From IMG/VR virus record IMGVR_UViG_2609459826_000002: a stretch of DNA of 64,000 nt. One strand, written 5' to 3'. Under the pieces are notes generated by a model that searched no databases, had not been told where the DNA came from, and worked only from the letters and a program-made list of their open reading frames with translations. How positions within the stretch are numbered: the first letter of the stretch is position 1; each line of letters begins with the position of its first letter. Positions 1-22,926 of this stretch are shown here, in pieces. A program made the translations under genes and the position numbers. Source of the stretch: a virus. Lineage: Duplodnaviria > Heunggongvirae > Uroviricota > Caudoviricetes.

Positions 1-349
<349 letters not shown>

Positions 350-352
350 CTA

Positions 353-600
353 TTGGCGTTCCGTTCTTCTGGCCGTCCGCTGCAATGCCAAATACTGTAA
401 TCGACAGCTGGTCCAGTATGGTGTTTTTGAAGTTCAACGGGGCGAAATTTTCTGCCTCTGATTACCCTGTGCTGGCGAAAGTGTTTCCTTCACTGGTATT
501 ACCTGAAGCCCGCGGTGATTTCATTCGTATCTGGGATGACGGGCGAGGTGCCGATGGTGGTCGCGAATTATTAAGCTGGCAGGAAGCTACAAACTTTTCT
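353..600 (+). pseudogene. Tail fibre gene fragment (Stf/tail-collar-like motif), inverted relative to the tail module
   Basis: Plus-strand translation IGVPFFWPSAAMPNTV...FNGAKFSASDYPVLAKVFPS..LPEARGDFIRIWDDGRGADGGRELLSWQE resembles the conserved side-tail-fibre motif; no intact N- or C-terminal context; boundaries approximate. Confidence 0.5.
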
Positions 601-819
601 CAGTTTGCTGCGCTGAAGCAGCCACAGTCGGGAGCCGTAACGGTCATTCTGTACCGCAGGCCAGGTATCCCCCCACCATCCCATCGGGACGTCGGCGTTG
701 TCATCAGGCTCCGCCCGCCGCCAGGTAAACAGGGAAATCACCACGGCGCGGGTCAGCGGATCCAGCGGTGCGCTGGCGCAGGTGCGTTTACCGTTCACCG
801 TCAGCCACAGTTCCATCAT
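571..819 (-). CDS. Mu gp46-like baseplate protein, apparently 3'-truncated at a rearrangement junction near 595
   Basis: 82-aa ORF with conserved-looking core ISLFTWRRAEPDDNADVPMGWWGDTWPAVQNDRYGSRLWLLQRSKL; ATGA overlap with upstream gpV-like gene; C-terminal residues read antisense into the tail-fibre fragment. Family assignment from memory. Confidence 0.45.
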   Translation of the reverse strand: MMELWLTVNGKRTCASAPLDPLTRAVVISLFTWRRAEPDDNADVPMGWWGDTWPAVQNDRYGSRLWLLQRSKLRKVCSFLPA

Positions 820-1364
820 GCCTCCATCGCTTTATCCGGTTTGTCGGTGTTACTGCCCTGACCGTTCTCTCTGTGACGATGCCCGTTATAGGCAAGCCGC
901 ATCGCTGACATGGTGGTACCGCCGGAGTCGCACAGGTCTTTCACCTGTCCGGTCACTTCCAGGTCCATTTCAAAACGTGCTCTGGGCGCATTGCGAAACG
1001 TGATCGTTTTACCTGCACCGTCCACCACGATCCCCTCCCGGGTCAGCGTCACAGACTGCCCCTGATCGTCATAGACAGCCACCTCACCCGTCTGCAGCCC
1101 TTTCAGGCGGTAGCGCCGGTCCGACACCGTAACAACCACCGCATGAGAACGGTCGCCATCCGGAAACAACACCACCGCTTCCGCACCGCTGTTTGCCCTT
1201 GCGGTAAAACCGTAGGGTTCAAGATGTTCAATCCCGGCTTTGGGTTCACCGGCAATCAGGGACACATCCACGGTCTGACATTTCGTGGCGGCACTGATGC
1301 TTTTCACCACTGCCCGCCCAATCAGGCCGAGAAGTTGTCGCTGCATGGCTTCAATCGTCCTCAT
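816..1364 (-). CDS. Baseplate assembly/spike protein V-like (P2 gpV / Mu gp45 family)
   Basis: 182-aa ORF, position downstream of gpP-like hub gene, sequence resembles phage baseplate assembly protein V. Confidence 0.7.
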   Translation of the reverse strand: MRTIEAMQRQLLGLIGRAVVKSISAATKCQTVDVSLIAGEPKAGIEHLEPYGFTARANSGAEAVVLFPDGDRSHAVVVTVSDRRYRLKGLQTGEVAVYDDQGQSVTLTREGIVVDGAGKTITFRNAPRARFEMDLEVTGQVKDLCDSGGTTMSAMRLAYNGHRHRENGQGSNTDKPDKAMEA

Positions 1365-2443
1365 CAGAACGGGTCCTCCTGTACTCTGGCTTTTTTCTTT
1401 TTCCGCGCGCCGGGGTCTTCGGGTTCAGGCAGATAAGCATCAGGCGGGCCGACACGGATTTCCGTCAGGGTGCCGTTCTGGTCCTGAGTAAACGTGACTT
1501 CCGAAACAAGCAGTTCGGTATTGTCGAAACCACAGACCGGATCGAAGACAATCACCCGCTGGTTGGGCTGCCACAGCGTACCGTTACCCTGTCGCCAGCC
1601 CTGAACCACATAGGTGGTTTCATCCGTCCGCGCCGCCCGTTGTCGGGCTTCAAAGTCCGCACGGGCAATACAGCCTGCCCCCGTAGCCTGCCCTGTCTGC
1701 CTGATATACATCGGACGGTAACGGGCAATAAATGCGTCCTCTGTGCGGGCCCGCAGCGCGGTGGTGGTGGCCTCACCGAAATCATCGTCGTTTCCGGCAC
1801 GCTGCCCCGCCACCTGGTAAACAGAAAACCGCTCCCGGATACTCTTCTCCGTATCACAGGAAAGGATATTTTCCCCAAGTACCAGCGCGGTATGTGCCCG
1901 CGTTGAGCCAATACCGCCAATCACCAGCCTGCCGTGCGGGTCGTCGTAAGCCAGTGCCTGCTGCTGACCGAGTATTTTGTTGATCACCTCAATCACCGTT
2001 TCGCCGTGATCAGGCTGGACATCAGGAATAACACCCGACGGCGCACTGTTGTTCACCACCTCAATGCCGAAAGGCGCAGCAAGCGCCTGCGTAATCTGTA
2101 CCAGCGATCGTCCGTTAAACTGTGTCGGTTCGGCTGCACAGTCAATCAGGTCAGCGGTCAGACTGCGTCCGGCAATACCGGTGCTGACCGAACGGGCATC
2201 GTAACGAACGGGCGTCGCCTCCACCCAGCCGGTGATCACCAGCTCATCACCAATCAGCACCTCCACTTTTGAACCGTTTTTAATGCGCGGCTGAAGCGTG
2301 GTGATACCCTCATCTCCCGGCCACTGTCGGGTGATCTCCACACTGAAATCCCGCGCCAGCCGTTCAATACCGGCACCGATGCGTACCGATGTCCAGCCAT
2401 TCCACTCCCGGCCATTTACCCGTAGCGTGACATTGTCGTTCAT
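1364..2443 (-). CDS. Tail/baseplate hub protein (Mu gpP / P2 gpD-like late control D family)
   Basis: 359-aa ORF; overlapping stop/start with neighbours; conserved position after DNA circularisation gene. Confidence 0.75.
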   Translation of the reverse strand: MNDNVTLRVNGREWNGWTSVRIGAGIERLARDFSVEITRQWPGDEGITTLQPRIKNGSKVEVLIGDELVITGWVEATPVRYDARSVSTGIAGRSLTADLIDCAAEPTQFNGRSLVQITQALAAPFGIEVVNNSAPSGVIPDVQPDHGETVIEVINKILGQQQALAYDDPHGRLVIGGIGSTRAHTALVLGENILSCDTEKSIRERFSVYQVAGQRAGNDDDFGEATTTALRARTEDAFIARYRPMYIRQTGQATGAGCIARADFEARQRAARTDETTYVVQGWRQGNGTLWQPNQRVIVFDPVCGFDNTELLVSEVTFTQDQNGTLTEIRVGPPDAYLPEPEDPGARKKKKARVQEDPF

Positions 2444-3774
2444 TGCACTGGCACCTTCAGAGGGATCACCGGCACAAAGCCGGGATGCGTAATGGCATTA
2501 CGCCGGATAATGTCCGCGTCACGCGCCGCGTTATCAAACCAGGTCGCCGCCAGCACCAGCGCGGGTAAAACCTCATCCGGTGTGCGCTGAATGATCCGTG
2601 CAGACTGTTCAAGGCGCGTGTTGATATCCGCATTCAGATCTGCTTTCACCCGGCGCAGCGCCAGAAACAGCGCATCACTGGTTGTACGGGACAACTCCTT
2701 ATCAATTGCCGTATTCAGTGTGTCGCGAATGTCAGTCAGTTCTTCCCACGTCGGCAGGTCAACCGTGTTTTTCACCGCCGGTGCATTGTTCAGTGCCGGA
2801 TGCGTGACGGAAGGCCAGCCAGTGCTCTGCGCAGGTGTTGTTGCCTGCCCCACTGCGGAATTCTGCATCACCGCGGAAGTTGTTGGCGCAGGCAATCGGG
2901 TGATGGCATACGCCGCTTCGCTGATTGCGGTCGTACGAAGGGTGCTGGCAACCACATTACGCTGCTGCGTAGCCGTGGCGGTGGTTTTACTGTCCGTTTT
3001 CCAGACGCCGCGCGGTTGCAGATCGCTGCCGAGGCTGACACCGGAAAGCGTTTTGATCATGGTGACCAGGTCGCTGGCGTTACCATAAAGGCGTTTCCCG
3101 GTACGCCACATTTTCTGCACCTGCTCAACGAAATTTTTGCCTGACGATGGCGGCGGCAGAAGTACCGAGATATCCCCCTGCAACAGCCTGGCGGCATCCG
3201 ATACGGCAGAATCCACCACTTTCATCGCATCAGAAACATACCCCAGCATTATGCTGGCATTACCGATAACGTCGTTCTGCACGAAATCCGCCACACCATC
3301 GATACTGAAACCGCTGAAGCTGTCACTGATGCAGTCATCCAGTGCAGAACAGGATGACATCAGCGTCTGCGCCGTCGCCGCACCTGATGTGGGGTAAGAG
3401 AGTTCTCCTGCTTCGACAAACTTCAGGTCAAAGCGGACAATACGCCCTTCACTTTTCGATGTGCTGACCCGAACTTCCCCGTCAACACAGACTTTCAGCT
3501 CACCATATGTCGGGTGGACAAGCGTGCCGGGACCGGGTTTATTCAGCGCTTCAATCAGGCGATCGCGCTGGTCAAAGCAGTCATCTCCCACCACATAAGC
3601 TGTGATGGACGGGCGGAAAGTGACTTTTCCCAGATCTTCGGTATAGGGCTTGTCGCGGTTCGGGTATTCATGTGTTTCCACACGGCGACCGGTTCCCGCA
3701 CTTTCTTCTTCAACCTTAAACGGCACACCTCGAAATGACGCATCCTGAAGCCTGTCTTTCCACGTCATATACAC
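2440..3774 (-). CDS. Mu gpN-like DNA circularisation / tail protein
   Basis: 444-aa ORF beginning MYMTWKDRLQDASFRGVPFKVEE..., typical N-terminus of Mu N-like proteins; tail-module position. Confidence 0.75.
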   Translation of the reverse strand: MYMTWKDRLQDASFRGVPFKVEEESAGTGRRVETHEYPNRDKPYTEDLGKVTFRPSITAYVVGDDCFDQRDRLIEALNKPGPGTLVHPTYGELKVCVDGEVRVSTSKSEGRIVRFDLKFVEAGELSYPTSGAATAQTLMSSCSALDDCISDSFSGFSIDGVADFVQNDVIGNASIMLGYVSDAMKVVDSAVSDAARLLQGDISVLLPPPSSGKNFVEQVQKMWRTGKRLYGNASDLVTMIKTLSGVSLGSDLQPRGVWKTDSKTTATATQQRNVVASTLRTTAISEAAYAITRLPAPTTSAVMQNSAVGQATTPAQSTGWPSVTHPALNNAPAVKNTVDLPTWEELTDIRDTLNTAIDKELSRTTSDALFLALRRVKADLNADINTRLEQSARIIQRTPDEVLPALVLAATWFDNAARDADIIRRNAITHPGFVPVIPLKVPVQ

Positions 3775-3780
3775 TCCGAA

Positions 3781-3809
3781 AATAAAAAAGCCACCTATTA
3801 GAAGGTGGC
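3781..3809 (-). terminator. Rho-independent terminator downstream of the tail-operon moron
   Basis: Perfect 7-bp stem GCCACCT/AGGTGGC with 6-nt loop, followed on the minus strand by a T-run (plus strand AATAAAAAAG upstream). Confidence 0.6.
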
Positions 3810-3829
3810 CTTGTAATGAATTTTATTAA

Positions 3830-4360
3830 TTAGCGAGTCAGAAACAACGAATCTTTATACTTTTGCTGTTGTTCATTTAAATACTTAGCTGTTTCATCGC
3901 TGGCAAATGGAAATATTACCGTATTTTTAGGCATGGTAATTTCTTTTTTGTCCAGCGTCAGAGTAAACATAGGAACATACTGAGCAGAGTAACGCACCGC
4001 AGAAACGAGCTCTAGTTTAGACTCTTCAATAACACTTAAATTATCCAGGCTAACTTTCTCTTCATCTTTTTTCTTTGACGCATTTAAAGTTTTTATTACT
4101 TTATTTAATTTCTCCTGAAAATCCTCCTTAAAGTTTTCAGGATTGCCGTCGACAACAAGAATCTGTTCACCCTGATTATCTGGAAAAATAATCTTTGCAC
4201 TTATCAATTTATTTTCTTTATAAACATCACCAAGTTTTATGGCTCCTCCAGATAACTGAATAATATGTTCATCTTTAAAGGAGATGTTGCCAGAGATTAT
4301 GAGAGATGAAAAAATAGCCGCTGCTCCAAGAATTACACTTGCTGTGATATAGCCTTTCAT
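3830..4360 (-). CDS. Hypothetical secreted or membrane-anchored protein (moron inside tail operon)
   Basis: 176-aa ORF with N-terminal hydrophobic segment MKGYITASVILGAAAIFSSLIISG; visibly AT-rich relative to flanking tail genes; own upstream AT-rich region and downstream terminator. Confidence 0.6.
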   Translation of the reverse strand: MKGYITASVILGAAAIFSSLIISGNISFKDEHIIQLSGGAIKLGDVYKENKLISAKIIFPDNQGEQILVVDGNPENFKEDFQEKLNKVIKTLNASKKKDEEKVSLDNLSVIEESKLELVSAVRYSAQYVPMFTLTLDKKEITMPKNTVIFPFASDETAKYLNEQQQKYKDSLFLTR

Positions 4361-4451
4361 TTTTCGCCTATTAACATTTTTCTAAATGTGCATTAATTCT
4401 ATCACTCTATTTATGACTTACAACCAGCAATACATGTGAGGGGAATCCTGG

Positions 4452-6284
4452 CTACCAAAATCGGGTATAGCCAACATCGTGATTTATATCAATGCCACTG
4501 GAGCGTGTTTCCGTAACCCGCATACCTGGTGGCATATTTATAAATGATACCTTGATCTCACCATCAACTTTTGGCGCGGTAGCTTTATTAATCATGAAGG
4601 GATTCGAGCCTGTGGCATCGGAGGCGTTGTTTGCCTGAGCCGGATCCACCGCCGGATAAGGAGTGTATCCCCGTGCCGGTATTCCCGTCCCATAAGCATC
4701 ATAAGCACCCGCGCCCCACTGCGCAGAGTTAATGGCATCGACCGTGTCACCGGAACTGTCGGTAAACCACTCAATAATTGGCTTCAGCTTGTCCCACATA
4801 TCCTGAAACCACTTAACAACCGGCCCCCAGTTATTGATCACCATCCCCATCGGCGACCAGGCAAAAACTTTCTTAAGGAGTTCCCAGCCAGCCTCAAAAT
4901 AAGGACCAATGGTTTCCCAGAGCTTCTTGAAATAAGGTCCGACAACATCCCAGTTAGTGATAATTAATCCCGCAGCCAGGGCTATCGCCGTCGCAATCAT
5001 GCCAATCGGCGTCATCGACATGATCCTGCTGACAATGCTGATGGCACTGCCCACGCCCATCAATCCCAGTTTCAGAATCGCAAGACCGGCAGCAAGCCCG
5101 ACGACGCCGCGAATAACCCGGGGATTTTCATCCGCAAACTTCGTGAATTTTTCCCCCAACTCCCCCAGCCATTGCGTGATATTTTTAGCGTCACCAGAAA
5201 ATGCGCCGCCAATAGCCGCAAGGCCGTTAGTTGCGGTCCCTGTCATTGCCTCCCACAGGTTGGACAGCGTACCAAGCTGTGCCTGAACACGTTTATTCAG
5301 GCTGGCCTGTTTATTCATCTTCTGCTGGATCTGATCGTAGCCATCCTTTCCTTTATCGATTAGTGCATTGACCACCTGAAGGGTTTCGGCATCATCACCA
5401 AATATTGCCTTAAGTACACCGGTTCGCTTAACGTCGGTCAGTTTTCGCAGCTTTGCCAGTTGCCCGAACATGTTATCAAGACCGCCAAAACTCCCTTTGC
5501 CATCAGTAAAATCGAGCTGTACCCCGAGTTTCTGGCGGGCCATGATTTTATTGACGTCCCTGATTTTCTTAACGCTTAATCCGGACTGGATAACTTTTCG
5601 CAGGGCATTACCTGCCGACTCCCCGTTCATCCCCATCTGATCCATCATGACACTGATGGGGGCAAGACTCTGTGCAGCCTGAAGACCGTCCTTATTCACC
5701 ATCTTCAGAACAGAGCTGGTTTTAGTGAAGAATGACAGCATGTTGGTGTCGTCAACGCCCAGATAAAACGCCTTCTGAATTGTGTCGAACAGCCCCATCA
5801 TGTCTTCTGAGGCCGTTCCGGTAGCATCCTGCATCTTTGCGGCAAACTCGGCAGCCGCTTCCGGTGTTTTTTTCAGTTGTACCGCAAGATAAGCTGTCGC
5901 TTTACCCACACCACCCAGAATGTTTTCTGCCGGGATCCCCTGACGCACCAGCATCTGCATCATGTTCTGGAAATCAGCCGTTGTACCGGGTAGCTGGTTA
6001 CCCAGGCCAATAGCCAGTTTATTGATGTCCTGAAAGCTCTTTCCAACCTCGCCGTTCGCATCCATCATGGCGACTTTCAGCCCGGTAGCGGCGTTTTCCT
6101 GATCGGCATAAGATTTCAGGGAAAGCGTCAGCCCCGCTGCCAATCCGCCACCAAGCGCCAGCCCACCCTGTGACGCCTCTTCCGCCTGGCGTTTAAATCC
6201 CCGGATTTTCTTTTGCATTTTCGACAGCGCGGGAGAAAGCCTGTCGACACCGGTGATCAACGCCTTAAGCTCAAATTCAGCCAT
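4452..6284 (-). CDS. Tail tape measure protein
   Basis: 610-aa ORF, Gly/Ala-rich central region with hydrophobic segments, located between chaperone and baseplate genes. Confidence 0.8.
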   Translation of the reverse strand: MAEFELKALITGVDRLSPALSKMQKKIRGFKRQAEEASQGGLALGGGLAAGLTLSLKSYADQENAATGLKVAMMDANGEVGKSFQDINKLAIGLGNQLPGTTADFQNMMQMLVRQGIPAENILGGVGKATAYLAVQLKKTPEAAAEFAAKMQDATGTASEDMMGLFDTIQKAFYLGVDDTNMLSFFTKTSSVLKMVNKDGLQAAQSLAPISVMMDQMGMNGESAGNALRKVIQSGLSVKKIRDVNKIMARQKLGVQLDFTDGKGSFGGLDNMFGQLAKLRKLTDVKRTGVLKAIFGDDAETLQVVNALIDKGKDGYDQIQQKMNKQASLNKRVQAQLGTLSNLWEAMTGTATNGLAAIGGAFSGDAKNITQWLGELGEKFTKFADENPRVIRGVVGLAAGLAILKLGLMGVGSAISIVSRIMSMTPIGMIATAIALAAGLIITNWDVVGPYFKKLWETIGPYFEAGWELLKKVFAWSPMGMVINNWGPVVKWFQDMWDKLKPIIEWFTDSSGDTVDAINSAQWGAGAYDAYGTGIPARGYTPYPAVDPAQANNASDATGSNPFMINKATAPKVDGEIKVSFINMPPGMRVTETRSSGIDINHDVGYTRFW

Positions 6285-18130: not shown

Positions 18131-18562
18131 TTACTCCTTCGAGCTACCAAATTTGTTACCGATTACTCGCATTGCAGCCCCACGAATAGCATCGACACCG
18201 ATCAGCCCCACGCCACCACCAATGGCAACAGAAAGCGATTTAGGCCATCCGACATATTCAAGAGCGGATGCAAAGGTCAGCGTCAGAGCGCCACATAGCA
18301 AAATCTCGAGCGTTTTTCGCTTCCAGCCACCACCACCGCCAAAATAGGCGATGCGCAAACCAGCCATAACGATCGACATAATCACTGCACCCAGCGGTGT
18401 GTCTCCACGCCACCAGCTCTGAAACAACTCCAGCCAGTCCGGCCAGGTATTTGGGTTATGAGGCATTTCGTCATCTCTCACCTCGCGATATTTGCGGGTG
18501 CTGTGTTGGAAATAAAAAGGCCACGCAACGTGGCCACCAGAATTATTTCCCCACCAGTTCAC
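18131..18562 (-). CDS. Holin (lambda S-like topology); true start probably internal
   Basis: Three hydrophobic segments and charged C-terminus upstream of endolysin. Confidence 0.6.
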   Translation of the reverse strand: MNWWGNNSGGHVAWPFYFQHSTRKYREVRDDEMPHNPNTWPDWLELFQSWWRGDTPLGAVIMSIVMAGLRIAYFGGGGGWKRKTLEILLCGALTLTFASALEYVGWPKSLSVAIGGGVGLIGVDAIRGAAMRVIGNKFGSSKE

Positions 18563-19595
18563 TTACCTCTTTCACCGTCTGATTAAACCGCTCTGACTCA
18601 AGTTCAACACCTAACGCCCGACGCCCCAGCGCCATTGCTGCTTTTATTGTGGAACCGGATCCCATAAAGAAATCAGCAACCAGATCACCAGGTCGACTAC
18701 TGGCATTGATTATTTGCCGGAGCATATCCGCCGGTTTCTCGCACGGATGTTTACCCGGGTAGAACTGAACGGGCTTATGCGTCCAGACATCGGTATAAGG
18801 CACGGAGACTGATACGGAGAAATAGCGCCGGAGAGATTTAAACTCATCCAGCAATTCAGAATATTTGCGATTCAGTGAATCATAAGATGCCACCAGCTGG
18901 TGGTGTGGTTGTTCCAGTTGTTGTTCCTGAAACTTCTCTGCCGCTATACGGGAAAACAGTGCCTGTAACTTCCGATAGTCAGCCTCATTCGGCAACTGCC
19001 ACTGACTGGCACCAAACCAGTGGGAAACCATATTTTTCTTACCTGTGGCTTCGGCAATTTGTTTTGCCGTTATACCCAGTTCGGCACGAGCATCCCTGAA
19101 ATACGATATCAGCGGTGCCATTATGTGCTGTTTGAGTTCCCTTTCTTTTGCCGCATAGCCGTCACTTTTGCCGCGATATGGCCCCTGGTAATGTTCAGCA
19201 AACAGAACGCGCTCTGTGGCAGGAAAATATGCGCGCAGACTTTCTTTATTACACCCATTCCAACGTCCGGACGGCTTCGCCCAGATGATATGGTTAAGCA
19301 CGTTGAAACGTTCACGCATCATGATCTCAATATCAGATGCCAGGCGATGCCCACAGAACAGGTAAAGGCTTCCGGCAGGTTTCAACACCCGCCAGAACTG
19401 GGCCAGACAGTGGTCCAGCCACTTAAGGTAATCTTCGTCCCCTTTCCACTGATTGTCCCAACCGTTGGGTTTCACCTTGAAGTAAGGCGGATCGGTAACA
19501 ATCAGGTCAATGGAATCATCAGGCAGGGACTGAATAAAATGCAGGCAATCAGCGTTGATTAAATCAACACTGTTTATTTTTACAGTATTTTTCAT
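18543..19595 (-). CDS. DNA methyltransferase (DPPY motif, N6-adenine/N4-cytosine class)
   Basis: 350-aa ORF with IVTDPPYF motif and SAM-binding C-terminal motif FFMGSGST. Confidence 0.8.
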   Translation of the reverse strand: MKNTVKINSVDLINADCLHFIQSLPDDSIDLIVTDPPYFKVKPNGWDNQWKGDEDYLKWLDHCLAQFWRVLKPAGSLYLFCGHRLASDIEIMMRERFNVLNHIIWAKPSGRWNGCNKESLRAYFPATERVLFAEHYQGPYRGKSDGYAAKERELKQHIMAPLISYFRDARAELGITAKQIAEATGKKNMVSHWFGASQWQLPNEADYRKLQALFSRIAAEKFQEQQLEQPHHQLVASYDSLNRKYSELLDEFKSLRRYFSVSVSVPYTDVWTHKPVQFYPGKHPCEKPADMLRQIINASSRPGDLVADFFMGSGSTIKAAMALGRRALGVELESERFNQTVKEVSELVGK

Positions 19596-19744
19596 GGATC
19601 AGTAAGCGTAACTCTGGTAGGCTCACTCTGCTTTTGCGCTAAAGCAGTGGGCCGTGGTTCGCTTGTGACCAGTAGGCATGAGCGAATGGCTGGCAGGTGC
19701 TACCAACACCCACCAGCCGCCCATTTTCACAAATTAAAAGCCCT

Positions 19745-20184: not shown

Positions 20185-21351
20185 ATGGAATTGACCAAAA
20201 AAATGAGCAAAGCAAGCATACGCCACGTAATCGTTCATGAGCTCTTAAAAGAATCTAATAAAGACTTCGATCACTCCAAACCATACAATCTTCGTGATAC
20301 AGAACTAGATAAAACAAATGATATAGTAAAAAAATTAGTAGACGGTGTTATTGATTTGTATGGTTCAAAAGGGAACTCAGCGCATTATGGTGTTTTTATT
20401 AAAAATAAAACAAAGCAAGGCCCTATACCAGAACTATTTCATAAATACTCTTTAGTTCAACAATCTGTTTCAAGTGATTTCATTGAATTATCGAAGGAAG
20501 TTATGAAACAAATGTATAAATCTGCTCAAGAGCAGATTTGGGCTTCTGGAGGATATGTTGTTTTTACTGATTATATTTTATCTGGTTTCCGTTATCTATT
20601 GGTTACAATGATCAAAAAAACTAATGGCGTAACTATTAGTGAAAATTTAGAGCCAGAGGAAATGATTCACTTAGAACTTGGTAATATTAACCAAGCAGCA
20701 AAAATAAATTTCAGATATTATGAAGAATACCAAAAAGCAGATGACTTAAAAAAAACAGACTTAAGTTATCTAAGCTTTATAAGCAAAACTACGGGACAGT
20801 CAGCGGCAGCATATTTTATAGCAGCATTAGGATGTGACAAGGGGATTGCTTCAGCAGGTGCAACCCGTAAGTTACCAGATGAAATAAGGCGTTTCTTTAA
20901 GAAAGAACCTCTTTTAAAAAATCAAGCAGAGTCATTTAGAAATGATGTTATCAAATACTTAGAAAAGCAATTTGACAACGAGCACTCTGCAAGGCTTTCT
21001 GATATCGAATCGCTTGCTTCAGGCCATATGTCCGATTTAAAAGAGGAAGAAAAAACAGAACTTGTTGATAAATTAATGAAACACCTCAATAGTGAGGAAG
21101 TCAGAATCCCATCAGAGTTCGTAATCAATAAAAACTCCTTAGATAAAATCCGCAATGTGATATATAAAACCCCATCATTGAGCTTTCACTTCGACAAGGA
21201 TTTACTCGGTGTCACAACTGATGCTAAAATATATTATGATGACGAAAACCAAAGCCTAACATTTAATAATTTGCCTGTTGAAGCATTAACTAAGATAAGA
21301 AGAGCGTTGAAAGAAACTGATAACCCGAGTAATGAAGAAGATAAAGAATGA
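20185..21351 (+). CDS. NdpA/YejK-like nucleoid-associated protein homolog (cargo gene A)
   Basis: 388-aa ORF; core GGYVVFTDYILSGFRYLLVTMI...ENL...and C-terminal KIYYDDENQSLTFNNLP align by eye with E. coli YejK (recalled from memory); AT-rich; opposite strand to phage late genes. Confidence 0.65.
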   Translation: MELTKKMSKASIRHVIVHELLKESNKDFDHSKPYNLRDTELDKTNDIVKKLVDGVIDLYGSKGNSAHYGVFIKNKTKQGPIPELFHKYSLVQQSVSSDFIELSKEVMKQMYKSAQEQIWASGGYVVFTDYILSGFRYLLVTMIKKTNGVTISENLEPEEMIHLELGNINQAAKINFRYYEEYQKADDLKKTDLSYLSFISKTTGQSAAAYFIAALGCDKGIASAGATRKLPDEIRRFFKKEPLLKNQAESFRNDVIKYLEKQFDNEHSARLSDIESLASGHMSDLKEEEKTELVDKLMKHLNSEEVRIPSEFVINKNSLDKIRNVIYKTPSLSFHFDKDLLGVTTDAKIYYDDENQSLTFNNLPVEALTKIRRALKETDNPSNEEDKE

Positions 21352-22574
21352 ATGATTTTAGTATAATAGTTAATCTGTATAGATTATCAAGCTATCCTCA
21401 TTTTGACGGGGCTAAGTTTTCTGCGCGTATAGCTTATAATGCAGACGTAAAATCATTGTTCAAAAGAATTTTGAACCCTACTTTTCAAGCTGGTACAGCT
21501 GACGAAATAGAGGTGGATGGTCATTTAATTTATGATTATGAAGACTTTCCTGAAAAGGGAAATTTTCTTACATACTCGTTTAAAATTTCACAAGGAAGTG
21601 CGAATCGTTTTTATAAAAATAAAAACGAGTTTGTAAAAATAAACACGCTCAAGAAAGGCATAATGCCAGAGTATTTCTATATTATAGAGGATGATTTCTA
21701 TTCATTAGAAACACCAAAACCTTCTTATATCCAAAAAATTGAGGACATTTGTGAGCTAATCAATGCTCTTTCCATGCTTGCTCATTTCCATGATATAAAA
21801 AAAGATAGCAAAGGTACATTTTATCGTTTAGTCTTTATTTTAAACTCAGAGTCTAAATCTTCTTCTGCTGTAATTGAAACAAATATTACAGAAGAAATTT
21901 TTAATGATAAAACAGTAAATACTCAGTTAGTTAAAACATTAGTAAGTAGTGAAGCTACTACTGATGCCCATCACATTGAAAAGATTAACACTTTCAGAAA
22001 CACAGTTATTGAGTATGTTAATAAAAATGGAAATTCCTTTGTCGAGTTAATTAACAAGTGGGATTTCATATGCGAACTTTATACGAACAACTTAGCTGCT
22101 TATATGTCGGCATTTTCTTTTCATAAAGCAAGGAAAGAAGTTGTTGATGCTGAACTCGATTACTCAGAAAAACTGTCAAAAATAATTTCAGAAATTTCTA
22201 ACAAAGCTCTTGCAATACCTATTTCACTAGCTGGTTCAATTGCTATTTTCAAATTAACAACAAAAACTGATTGGATTATTGCTTTAATTGGATTGATTAT
22301 CACAGCAATAATAACATCTGCAATGATTGTGTCACAAAAAAAACAACTCGCTCGTATTTCACACTCTAAAGAAATACTTTTTGGACAATTAAGATATAGA
22401 ATAAAGGATGACACCAGCGATCTTAAAGAGAGCTTAGAAGAGGCTATTAAAAAATTAAATGACAATGAGGATTTTTGTCATAAGGTGCTTGACAGTTTAT
22501 TATCACTAGCATGGATGCCTACATTCATAGGCATCATCGGTATTTTATTTAAATTAATGCCAAATATTACTTGA
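21348..22574 (+). CDS. Hypothetical membrane-anchored protein (cargo gene B), translationally coupled to gene A
   Basis: 408-aa ORF; ATGA start/stop overlap with gene A; soluble N-terminal ~280 aa, then hydrophobic helices (ISLAGSIAIFKL...IIALIGLIITAIITSAMIV and WMPTFIGIIGILFKL). Confidence 0.6.
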   Translation: MNDFSIIVNLYRLSSYPHFDGAKFSARIAYNADVKSLFKRILNPTFQAGTADEIEVDGHLIYDYEDFPEKGNFLTYSFKISQGSANRFYKNKNEFVKINTLKKGIMPEYFYIIEDDFYSLETPKPSYIQKIEDICELINALSMLAHFHDIKKDSKGTFYRLVFILNSESKSSSAVIETNITEEIFNDKTVNTQLVKTLVSSEATTDAHHIEKINTFRNTVIEYVNKNGNSFVELINKWDFICELYTNNLAAYMSAFSFHKARKEVVDAELDYSEKLSKIISEISNKALAIPISLAGSIAIFKLTTKTDWIIALIGLIITAIITSAMIVSQKKQLARISHSKEILFGQLRYRIKDDTSDLKESLEEAIKKLNDNEDFCHKVLDSLLSLAWMPTFIGIIGILFKLMPNIT

Positions 22575-22926
22575 GCATGTACATAACCCCATTAATGAAA
22601 CCTAACGCAGTCTGCAATTGCTTCCGGATTGTTCCATCTGAGCATCTGCGTCTCTTCGCAATAGAACGCAGTGAAATACCTATAACGAAGTGAGCAATGA
22701 TCAGCTCATATTCGTCTGGTTTATACTTACACAGGCGGGCAACACAGCCGTCTATCATGATGCCTTCATCATCATCACACTGAAGGCGTATTTTTTTACC
22801 ATGAGGTAAAAGCCCCTTAAAGCCTGCTGCTATCGGCTGCCAGTCCACACCACTGTTATCTGCTGCAGCCCACGCTCCCCAGCGGTCTAAAACTTCATAC
22901 ATATCACGCATCAACTTTCTCCACAA
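22567..22926 (-). CDS. Late antiterminator Q (QuuD/phage 82 type)
   Basis: 119-aa ORF with ERWGAWAA...AGFKGL...CDDD...C..RL motif pattern resembling QuuD-like Q proteins (from memory). Confidence 0.65.
   Translation of the reverse strand: MWRKLMRDMYEVLDRWGAWAAADNSGVDWQPIAAGFKGLLPHGKKIRLQCDDDEGIMIDGCVARLCKYKPDEYELIIAHFVIGISLRSIAKRRRCSDGTIRKQLQTALGFINGVMYMLK

What the first reader, a model, noticed from the sequence alone, without database searches (positions are those of the whole stretch)
3781..4451. Moron inside the tail operon: AT-rich secreted/membrane-anchored ORF with its own terminator
Between the tape measure gene and the gpN-like gene lies a 176-aa ORF with a signal-peptide-like N-terminus and no resemblance to tail proteins. 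It is AT-rich, preceded by an AT-rich promoter-like gap (4361..4451) and followed by a perfect hairpin plus T-run terminator on its own strand. This is the classic signature of a lysogenic-conversion moron (virulence or surface-exclusion factor). The strong terminator also raises the question of how the downstream baseplate genes are transcribed.
Basis: partly seen in the sequence, partly recalled or inferred. Interest (0 to 1): 0.55.

Follow-up and report, generated by a model that had tools for sequence, protein, structure and literature searches.

The report
Membrane-anchored cargo gene in prophage tail
An optional AT-rich gene sits in a swap-prone slot between two tail genes of an SfV-like E. 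coli prophage; it encodes an uncharacterised protein anchored in the inner membrane and facing the periplasm, and it most plausibly keeps rival phages out, which makes it an ordinary kind of phage "moron" from an unstudied family.

Summary
ORF 3830..4360 (-), 176 aa, is 34% GC against about 55% in the flanking tail genes. It lies between the tape measure gene and the Mu-gpN-type DNA-circulation gene and is followed by a strong hairpin plus T-run.

Comparison shows it is optional cargo. The cultured phages SfV, SfI and SfII have a roughly 60-nt gap at this position. The junction is a swap slot that holds at least six unrelated AT-rich genes in E. coli, and five of the six look envelope-targeted. 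One of them matches a PHROG annotated "superinfection exclusion Sie-like".

The protein has an N-terminal membrane helix and a confidently modelled periplasmic alpha/beta domain (pLDDT 92). No solved structure resembles it, and it has no Pfam, NCBIfam or PADLOC match. It is under purifying selection.

Orthologues occupy the same slot in Leclercia and Edwardsiella, and probably in Lelliottia, where I did not look at the locus. Remote relatives sit next to a SieB gene, in integrative islands, and as a lipoprotein in a lytic Pseudomonas phage.

The terminator belongs to the junction rather than to the moron, because empty sites carry one too. The prophage encodes a Q antiterminator, which would explain transcription of the baseplate genes.

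The best guess is a block to superinfecting phage entry. This is inferred, not shown.

The parts
3830..4360 (-). Cargo (moron) ORF of 176 aa. It is a predicted bitopic inner-membrane protein with a periplasmic alpha/beta domain, and it matches phrog_5485, a family of unknown function.
   Evidence: ORF and translation. GC 0.343. phrog_5485 match at E 3.8e-108; no Pfam, NCBIfam or PADLOC hit. AF2 pLDDT 92.1. dN/dS about 0.08.
4292..4357 (-). Codons 2-23: N-terminal transmembrane or signal-anchor helix, predicted N-in and C-out.
   Evidence: AF2 models a helix over residues 2-23. Across the family the uncharged stretch has a median of 23 aa, the N-flank net charge is +0.95 and the C-flank is -0.6. 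Two relatives have long N-terminal extensions before this segment.
4211..4273 (-). Codons 30-50: the most conserved motif of the family (N.I...G.V.LG.VY.E). It forms a membrane-proximal beta-hairpin and the start of strand 3.
   Evidence: In alignment A3 of 57 representatives, G44 is invariant within this motif (Y124, outside it, is the family's other invariant residue), and G39, L43 and E49 are conserved in at least 90%. AF2 strands at 33-36, 39-42 and 46-58. The motif recurs in the phage ventosus lipoprotein.
4396..4423 (-). Promoter-like site: -35 TTGTAA, a 16-nt spacer, and an extended -10 TGaTAGAAT. It ends 35 nt upstream of the start codon.
   Evidence: Consensus scan gives 9 of 12 matches plus the TG. 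The number of such sites in the region is not above the shuffle expectation, so this is only plausible.
3777..3812 (-). Intrinsic-terminator-like hairpin (10-bp stem GGCCACCT.., 6-nt loop) plus T-run, lying directly upstream of the gpN ribosome-binding site.
   Evidence: Fold energy -15.6 kcal/mol, z -5.08. Equivalent hairpins occur at the same place in empty and other-cargo junctions.
4452..6284 (-). Tail tape measure gene, the upstream border of the cargo slot.
   Evidence: PF10145 at E 1.7e-26. RefSeq annotation of an identical locus.
2440..3768 (-). Mu gpN-type DNA-circulation (baseplate) gene, the downstream border of the cargo slot. Its RBS GGAG is at 3777..3774.
   Evidence: PF07157 at E 3.8e-34. 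The annotated start in the identical RefSeq locus maps to window position 3768.
22567..22911 (-). Q antiterminator gene of the same prophage. It is the likely means by which late transcription reads through the junction terminator.
   Evidence: tblastn 100% identity to an annotated Q family protein. PF06530 at E 4.3e-44.

Best explanation
The feature is an accessory cargo gene (moron) in a recombination-prone slot between the tape measure gene and the gpN-type gene of an SfV-like prophage. That prophage type has lambdoid regulation, an HK97-type head and a Mu-type contractile tail, and it is integrated at tRNA-Thr.

The gene encodes a bitopic inner-membrane protein. A single N-terminal helix anchors it, N-in and C-out. 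A roughly 145-residue alpha/beta domain (beta-hairpin, then beta-beta-alpha-beta-beta-alpha) faces the periplasm.

The most likely function is superinfection exclusion. Made in the lysogen, and also during late transcription, the periplasmic domain would sit at the outer face of the inner membrane. There it would interfere with the step in which an incoming phage tail, through its tape measure or tip proteins or the inner-membrane factor they use, opens a path for DNA. Adsorption would be unaffected.

The hairpin plus T-run is the resident terminator of this junction. It would stop prophage-state transcripts from running into the baseplate genes. In lytic growth, Q-modified RNA polymerase would read through it.

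Shown here: the gene is optional, its composition is deviant, the slot is shared by alternative cargos, the ORF is under selection, the terminator structure is strong, a Q gene is present, and the topology and fold are predicted.

Inferred: expression in lysogens, the promoter, the exclusion function and its target.
For: Optional cargo. SfV, SfI, SfII and vB_EcoM-689R6 match both flanks but not the insert (56% of the query covered, span 881 bp). Read directly, the empty junction of an E. coli prophage has a gap of about 60 nt. Of 5426 complete E. coli genomes, 1093 carry the junction and only 172 carry this insert.

Swap slot. An evenly spaced sample of 60 records gave 28 empty sites, 10 with this gene, 4 with the SKA5-type insert length (one, L016, checked by sequence), 5 with the OB-fold gene, 1 with the bPH_1 gene and 12 with a different tape measure gene. 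Of three of those 12 that I looked at, two hold further cargos and one is empty. All cargos are AT-rich at 0.31-0.42 and unrelated to each other.

Envelope bias. By inspection of N-termini, five of the six cargo types have a transmembrane anchor, a signal peptide or a lipobox.

Exclusion link by position. The OB-fold cargo at the same slot matches phrog_8545, annotated 'superinfection exclusion Sie-like', at E 1.5e-49.

Exclusion link by neighbourhood. A remote family member (P0075) lies directly downstream of a SieB-family gene (PF14163, E 4e-30). The ORF on its other side has a weak, sub-threshold match to a HEPN family (PF18735, E 0.0018, 18.7 bits against a 28.4-bit cut-off). Other remote members are cargo in small integrative islands that carry a resolvase, an Mrr-type nuclease, a DUF5906 primase and an integrase.

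Periplasmic location. AF2 models a helix over residues 2-23. The family obeys the positive-inside rule and has a 23-residue uncharged stretch. Two relatives have cytoplasmic N-terminal extensions before the segment. A remote homologue in the lytic Pseudomonas phage ventosus carries the same domain behind a lipoprotein signal: Foldseek E 9.5e-7, probability 1.0; hhalign E 4.7e-5 over the whole domain.

Real, selected protein. dN/dS is 0.08. There are 77 cluster representatives of similar length. The model has pLDDT 92.

Long residence in the slot. Homologues at 53-58% identity occur in Leclercia and Lelliottia and at 41% in Edwardsiella; the Leclercia and Edwardsiella loci I examined lie between the tape measure and gpN genes and are still 33-39% GC.

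Precedent. HK97 gp15 is a moron next to the tape measure gene. It inserts into the inner membrane and blocks entry in a way that depends on the incoming phage's tail (PMC3594210).

Terminator and read-through.

Against: The PHROG 'Sie-like' label on the neighbouring cargo type is an annotation, not a tested function.

The SieB neighbourhood is a single 2.7-kb metagenomic contig type.

The promoter match is not above chance, and the orthologues have only mediocre promoter matches. Expression in lysogens is therefore unproven.

The gene is co-oriented with the late operon, so it could act only in lytic growth.

One cargo type at the slot, bPH_1, is cytoplasmic, so the slot is not restricted to envelope proteins.

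Signal peptide versus anchor was judged without a dedicated predictor.
Confidence: 0.42

Rival explanations
1. Host-fitness or virulence conversion unrelated to phages. The periplasmic protein would alter envelope physiology, for example stress tolerance, biofilm formation, serum or antimicrobial-peptide resistance, or colonisation. This would parallel lambda Bor/Iss or Lom.
For: The gene has moron architecture and AT-rich foreign DNA. A related prophage (NZ_CP104681.1) that carries the same tail module and the same cargo gene also carries iss, a bor-like moron; iss was not found in this window. The gene stays intact in a prophage that has lost its distal tail genes. Carriers include clinical isolates.
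Against: Bor/Iss and Lom act at the outer membrane, whereas this protein is predicted to be tethered to the inner membrane. Remote relatives occur in a strictly lytic plant-pathogen phage, in genome and metagenome assemblies that include Tara Oceans data, and beside SieB. That spread fits inter-phage conflict better than animal virulence. Carriers come from many hosts and environments.
Confidence: 0.17
2. Periplasmic immunity or inhibitor protein. It would neutralise an envelope-acting enzyme or toxin, such as a tail-associated or endolysin-type muramidase, a colicin or bacteriocin, or a T6SS or CDI effector. T4 Sp, which inhibits the gp5 lysozyme, is the model.
For: It is a small membrane-tethered periplasmic domain with a conserved membrane-proximal hairpin. 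Lipoprotein and transmembrane-anchored versions of one domain are typical of periplasmic immunity proteins.
Against: No cognate toxin gene is adjacent at any locus examined. There is no structural similarity to known lysozyme inhibitors or immunity proteins. If the inhibited enzyme belongs to an incoming phage, this rival merges with superinfection exclusion.
Confidence: 0.13
3. Lytic-cycle accessory function. The gene would be transcribed only as part of the Q-dependent late operon and would act during virion production. Possible roles are stopping progeny from wasting DNA on already infected or lysing cells, or tuning lysis or envelope remodelling.
For: The gene has the same orientation as the late operon and lies inside it. 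Promoter support is weak. The ventosus homologue is in a lytic phage.
Against: The cultured phages SfV, SfI, SfII and SKA5 do without it. The ORF is kept intact in tail-defective prophages, where a late function would be useless. One alternative cargo at the slot is on the opposite strand, so it cannot be late-operon driven.
Confidence: 0.12
4. Tail structural or assembly component specific to this phage lineage, for example a tape-measure-associated factor.
For: The gene occupies the same position between the tape measure and gpN genes across genera, at 41-58% identity.
Against: It is absent from cultured phages with 93-94% identical flanking DNA. Unrelated genes replace it at the same place. 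An N-terminal membrane anchor is implausible for a virion protein. Remote relatives lie outside tail modules. It has no PHROG structural annotation.
Confidence: 0.03

Closest known systems
HK97 gp15 moron (superinfection exclusion; YebO-like)
   Same: Both are morons inside a tail operon, immediately beside the tape measure gene, with composition unlike their surroundings. gp15 is an inner-membrane protein whose exclusion depends on the tail of the incoming phage (PMC3594210).
   Different: There is no sequence relationship. gp15 is a small protein without a sizeable periplasmic domain and lies upstream of the tape measure gene; this gene lies downstream of it. Function has been shown for gp15 but not for this protein.
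Membrane-tethered periplasmic or surface exclusion proteins: T4 Sp, P1 Sim, Streptococcus phage TP-J34 Ltp (my own knowledge; Ltp is also described in the abstract of PMC3952083)
   Same: Each is a small exported protein held at the membrane by a transmembrane helix or a lipid anchor, encoded by the phage, that blocks entry after adsorption. Ltp is reported to target the tape measure protein of the incoming phage (my own knowledge).
   Different: No detectable sequence or fold similarity. Those proteins come from unrelated phages, and some from Gram-positive hosts.
phrog_8545 'superinfection exclusion Sie-like' OB-fold protein (tRNA_anti-like, PF12869)
   Same: It occupies exactly the same slot between the tape measure and gpN genes in other E. 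coli SfV-like prophages. It is AT-rich and has an N-terminal transmembrane anchor.
   Different: The sequence and fold are unrelated, and it is encoded on the opposite strand. Its Sie label is an annotation whose experimental basis I did not trace.
Pseudomonas phage ventosus lipoprotein CNR37_00111 (UniProt A0A2H4P829)
   Same: It is the only significant structural match (Foldseek E 9.5e-7, probability 1.0, TM-score 0.66 on the target). hhalign aligns the whole periplasmic domain, including the N.I...G.V.LG.V..E motif.
   Different: It has a lipoprotein anchor instead of a transmembrane helix. It is in a lytic 97-kb phage, outside any tail module. Identity is 16-17%. Its function is also unknown.
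Lambda-type morons bor/iss and lom
   Same: All are AT-rich cargo genes placed among or next to the late genes of lambdoid prophages. An iss gene is annotated in a related prophage that carries this same tail module.
   Different: Those are outer-membrane proteins with host-interaction phenotypes. This protein is predicted to be inner-membrane anchored.

Membership tests
Moron (as defined for HK97/HK022 by Juhala et al. 2000, quoted in PMC3594210) | Extra DNA between two genes that are adjacent in related phages | tested here: met
   SfV, SfI, SfII and vB_EcoM-689R6 match both flanks but not the insert (span 881 bp). The empty junction of an E. coli prophage read directly has a gap of about 60 nt, against 683 nt here. 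The slot is empty in about half of the sampled E. coli junctions.
Moron | Base composition different from the surrounding genes | tested here: met
   GC 0.343 against 0.516 and 0.557. The same holds in orthologues from other genera, at 0.33-0.39.
Moron | Own terminator | tested here: met
   Hairpin plus T-run at 3812..3777, z -5.08. Caveat: an equivalent terminator is present at empty junctions, so it is a feature of the slot.
Moron | Own promoter | tested here: inconclusive
   TTGTAA-16 nt-TGaTAGAAT at 4423..4396 matches 9 of 12 positions plus the extended -10. The number of such matches is not above the shuffle expectation, and orthologues have weaker, non-aligned matches.
Moron | Expressed from the repressed prophage | not testable with these tools
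   This needs RNA-seq, a reporter or proteomics on a lysogen.
Superinfection-exclusion proteins (functional class) | Located in the cell envelope | tested here: met
   Prediction only. AF2 transmembrane helix over residues 2-23. Positive-inside charge pattern and a 23-residue uncharged stretch across 57 relatives. A lipoprotein-anchored remote homologue.
Superinfection-exclusion proteins (known families: SieB PF14163, PHROG Sie families, PADLOC models) | Sequence or structural homology to a characterised exclusion protein | tested here: not met
Superinfection-exclusion proteins | Blocks infection after adsorption when expressed alone | not testable with these tools
   This needs plaque, adsorption and DNA-entry assays.
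phrog_5485 (unknown function) | Full-length profile match | tested here: met
   E 3.8e-108 over residues 1-176 of a 176-position profile.
Mu-type tail structural or assembly proteins | Present in all phages that share the tail module, and resembling a tail family | tested here: not met
   Absent from SfV, SfI, SfII and SKA5. No structural PHROG or Pfam match.

The most novel reading that the evidence does not exclude
The junction between the tape measure and gpN genes of SfV-like phages would be a dedicated exchangeable slot for envelope-acting anti-phage cargo. The 176-aa protein would then be the first recognised member of a new, widespread periplasmic exclusion domain. That domain is tethered either by a transmembrane helix or by a lipid anchor. 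It is found in temperate phages, satellite-like islands and lytic phages of Enterobacterales, Pseudomonas and gammaproteobacteria known only from metagenomes. It would stop genome entry by engaging the incoming tail tip or tape measure protein at the inner membrane.
Probability: 0.3. Interest if true: 0.55.

Novelty: new member of a known kind. Interest (0 to 1): 0.36.

Why it matters
Prophage morons are a main source of phage-resistance and fitness traits in E. coli, and most remain "hypothetical". This work gives three testable things.

First, it defines a cargo slot in a very common prophage type: about 20% of complete E. coli genomes carry the junction. The contents of that slot are strongly biased toward exported or membrane proteins.

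Second, it provides a confident structural model and a topology for one uncharacterised cargo family, present in about 3% of complete E. coli genomes.

Third, it links that family to a SieB neighbourhood and to a lipoprotein in a lytic phage.

If the exclusion function is confirmed, it would add a new entry-blocking protein family. The slot could then be mined for more such genes. If it is not confirmed, the gene remains a well-delimited conversion gene of unknown role. Either way, the case is conventional in kind.

Tried and rejected
Searches that found no relative of known function:
- Pfam, NCBIfam and PADLOC scans returned nothing. PHROGs returned only families of unknown function.
- A sequence search of the PDB gave only noise, E >= 0.5.
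- The AFDB50 fold library was unavailable.
- tblastn of the protein and of a remote relative against 50,697 phage records gave no match. The ventosus homologue is too remote for tblastn.

Context searches that failed:
- The search for related loci with the family alignments failed for lack of a conserved stretch.
- Three single-protein scans of viral contigs and one of genome contigs found nothing.
- Several context look-ups returned contigs too short to be informative.
- One cluster look-up was wasted on wrong coordinates.

Literature:
- A search for the RefSeq accession WP_000679479, and searches for a described hotspot at this junction, found nothing specific.

Ideas rejected:
- The SKA5 protein at the same slot is not a diverged homologue (BLASTP E 2.9). 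None of the alternative cargos matches the family HMM.
- The genes next to the family member in the integrative islands are not paralogues of it.
- I first mapped the Q gene from a related RefSeq record, but the window differs from that record in its regulatory region. I corrected this using a closer relative.

Full report
WHAT IS THERE. The window holds an SfV-like prophage running leftward on the minus strand. Between the tape measure gene (4452..6284, PF10145, E 1.7e-26) and the Mu gpN-type DNA-circulation gene (2440..3768, PF07157, E 3.8e-34) lies a 176-codon ORF at 3830..4360.

The ORF is 34.3% GC, against 51.6% and 55.7% for its neighbours. Both short gaps around it are equally AT-rich. 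It is followed by a 10-bp hairpin and a T-run at 3812..3777. That hairpin folds at -15.6 kcal/mol, z -5.08 against 200 shuffles.

Upstream there is a reasonable sigma-70 match with an extended -10 (TTGTAA-16 nt-TGaTAGAAT, 4423..4396). The region contains no more such matches than its shuffles do, so I treat the promoter as plausible only.

IT IS OPTIONAL CARGO IN A SWAP SLOT. The 1.5 kb around the ORF is 100% identical to E. coli chromosomes, where the ORF is annotated as a hypothetical protein, WP_000679479.1. The junction occurs in 1093 of 5426 complete E. coli genomes, but only 172 of them contain the insert.

The cultured phages SfV, SfI, SfII and vB_EcoM-689R6 match both flanks at 93-94% but not the insert, so they lack the gene. 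An empty junction read directly in an E. coli prophage has a gap of about 60 nt, and an alignment with SfII places the insert between its tape measure and gpN genes.

I searched with the two flanks joined and sampled the ranking evenly over 60 records. The slot was empty in 28. It held this gene in 10. Four had the insert length of the SKA5-type gene, of which one (L016) I checked by sequence. Five held an OB-fold gene and one a bPH_1 gene. In 12 the tape measure gene was too different to match. I looked at three of those 12: two contain further cargos, a 162-aa protein in an ST131 strain and a 225-aa protein in strain BY63, and the third has no cargo.

The six cargo proteins are mutually unrelated, and all are AT-rich at 0.31-0.42. 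Phage SKA5, an isolated phage, carries one of the alternatives, so cargo at this position is compatible with a working virus.

By inspection of their N-termini, five of the six are envelope-directed:
- this protein and the OB-fold protein have a transmembrane anchor;
- the SKA5-type and ST131-type proteins have a classical signal peptide;
- the BY63-type protein has a lipobox;
- only the bPH_1 protein looks cytoplasmic.

The OB-fold cargo matches phrog_8545, annotated "superinfection exclusion Sie-like", at E 1.5e-49.

THE PROTEIN. It has no Pfam, NCBIfam or PADLOC match. It matches phrog_5485, a family of unknown function, over its full length.

Homologues at 53-58% identity occur in Leclercia and Lelliottia, and one at 41% in Edwardsiella anguillarum. 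In the Leclercia prophages and the Edwardsiella contig that I examined, the gene lies in the same slot and is still 33-39% GC. In those prophages the tape measure protein is 39-79% identical and gpN 69-73% identical to the window's. I did not look at the Lelliottia locus. The gene is therefore an old resident of the slot in part of this phage lineage.

Between two orthologues with unsaturated dS, dN/dS is 0.08.

A profile search of 1.84 billion cluster representatives found 77 relatives, nearly all 170-195 aa. Their alignment shows a conserved N-terminal hydrophobic segment and a membrane-proximal motif, N.I...G.V.LG.VY.E. G44 and Y124 are invariant.

With this alignment, AlphaFold2 gives a confident model (pLDDT 92.1, pTM 0.77). 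It has a helix over residues 2-23 and a beta-hairpin at 33-42. Then come two strands, a long helix, two strands and a second long helix. A first model built from 14 sequences was poor, at pLDDT 63.

TOPOLOGY. Three observations bear on it:
- Across the family the N-flank carries net charge +0.95 and the C-flank -0.6, and the uncharged stretch has a median length of 23 residues.
- Two relatives have 50-120 extra residues before the segment.
- No conserved signal-peptidase site is visible.

Together with the lipoprotein version, this points to a domain that works in the periplasm while tethered to a membrane. I could not run a dedicated signal-peptide predictor, so cleavage is not excluded. Either way the domain is exported.

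CONTEXT OF REMOTE RELATIVES.
- A 33%-identical member again sits just upstream of a DNA_circ_N gene.
- A 22%-identical member lies directly after a SieB-family gene (PF14163, E 4e-30). After it come an ORF with a weak, sub-threshold match to a HEPN family (PF18735, E 0.0018, below the curated cut-off) and a gene for a multi-pass membrane protein.
- Others are cargo in small integrative islands. These islands carry resolvase, Mrr-type nuclease, DUF5906 primase and integrase genes. One such member is labelled Pseudomonas sp. and also occurs in Tara Oceans assemblies.

The domain therefore travels as accessory cargo on several kinds of mobile element. That rules out a tail-structural role and fits genes involved in conflict between mobile elements.

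THE TERMINATOR QUESTION. A GC-rich hairpin followed by a T-run lies directly upstream of the gpN ribosome-binding site in all of the following:
- empty junctions;
- behind the bPH_1, BY63, ST131 and SKA5 cargos;
- behind every orthologue of this gene that I examined, including the Edwardsiella one.

The stem sequences differ among most of these, although the empty junction and the bPH_1 junction share one. The position and the T-run are conserved. The SfII record annotates it as a putative rho-independent terminator.

It is absent in the OB-fold junction that I read, where the cargo is on the opposite strand, and from one lineage with a different tape measure gene. The terminator is therefore a property of the junction, which each cargo keeps or replaces. 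Cultured phages live with it.

The prophage in the window encodes a lambda-type Q antiterminator at 22567..22911 (-) (PF06530, E 4.3e-44). By the established behaviour of lambdoid late transcription, Q-modified polymerase ignores intrinsic terminators. This is the conventional explanation, and I infer rather than show that it applies here.

MECHANISM. I commit to superinfection exclusion at the inner membrane, with a probability of about 0.4. The supporting points are:
- the predicted location of the protein;
- the envelope bias of the slot's cargos;
- the Sie-annotated cargo at the same slot;
- the SieB neighbourhood of a remote relative;
- the presence of the domain in a lytic phage;
- the precedent of HK97 gp15, a moron beside the tape measure gene that blocks entry from the inner membrane in a tail-dependent way (PMC3594210).

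None of this is a functional test, and the protein fails the homology criterion for every known exclusion family. The rivals are a host-fitness factor, a periplasmic immunity or inhibitor protein, and a late-cycle accessory function. A structural role is essentially excluded.

That the gene is a moron encoding an exported, membrane-tethered protein I hold at about 0.9.

NOVELTY AND SCORE. This is a new, uncharacterised member of a well-known kind of element. The added value lies in the definition of the cargo slot, the confident model of a fold with no solved relative, and the remote links. A specialist would not be surprised, so I score interest at 0.36.

Noticed in passing
window 1..820: The prophage in this window is truncated at its tail end. 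Window 1-608 is 100% identical to the IS5 end plus a partial 'phage tail protein' fragment of a related RefSeq locus. At about position 600 it joins a truncated gp46 gene (the 82-aa ORF at 571..819). Baseplate J, gp48 and the tail-fibre genes are therefore missing. The cargo gene is nevertheless intact.
   Followed up: partly
window 20203..22574 (+): Two co-oriented genes lie on the strand opposite to the late genes, between the Q antiterminator and the lysis cassette. This is the classical cargo site of lambdoid phages. One encodes a 382-aa NA37-type nucleoid-associated protein (PF04245, E 2e-50). The other encodes a 408-aa protein with no Pfam match and overlaps the first by 4 nt. This could be a two-gene defence or conversion module.
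   Followed up: partly
L035 2832..3884 (close relative of the window's regulatory region; roughly window 18540..19600, not verified in the window): A DNA methyltransferase gene is annotated just upstream of the holin gene in the late region. It is a possible orphan methylase cargo.
   Followed up: no
L004 8013..9808, L005, L006 and L011 (Leclercia-type prophages): These relatives carry two extra genes between gpN and gpP (503-507 aa and 94 aa, no Pfam hits). The E. coli prophage lacks them. This is a second variable site in the same tail module.
   Followed up: no
L024 25146..25439 (NZ_CP104681.1): A related prophage with the same tail module and the same cargo gene carries iss (increased serum survival, bor-like) on the opposite strand, between the lysis and terminase genes. 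The window's prophage differs from it in this region.
   Followed up: partly
H12, NZ_CP101274.1 871155..873527: In one E. coli strain an IS5-family transposase gene is annotated between two 'hypothetical protein' features within the matched cargo region. This suggests that the cargo gene is occasionally disrupted by an insertion.
   Followed up: no
L025 about 3565..3600 (ST131 prophage): The ST131-type cargo has an additional hairpin (AACCCTACTT...AAGTAGGGTT) directly after the tape measure stop codon. That junction therefore has terminator-like structures on both sides of the cargo.
   Followed up: no
L004, L008, L011 about 5950..5990: The gaps upstream of the Leclercia-type orthologues contain short inverted repeats of the form TTGC(N)GCAA, for example TTTGCATAGCAAA. 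This could be an operator for a regulator. It is not present in the E. coli version.
   Followed up: no
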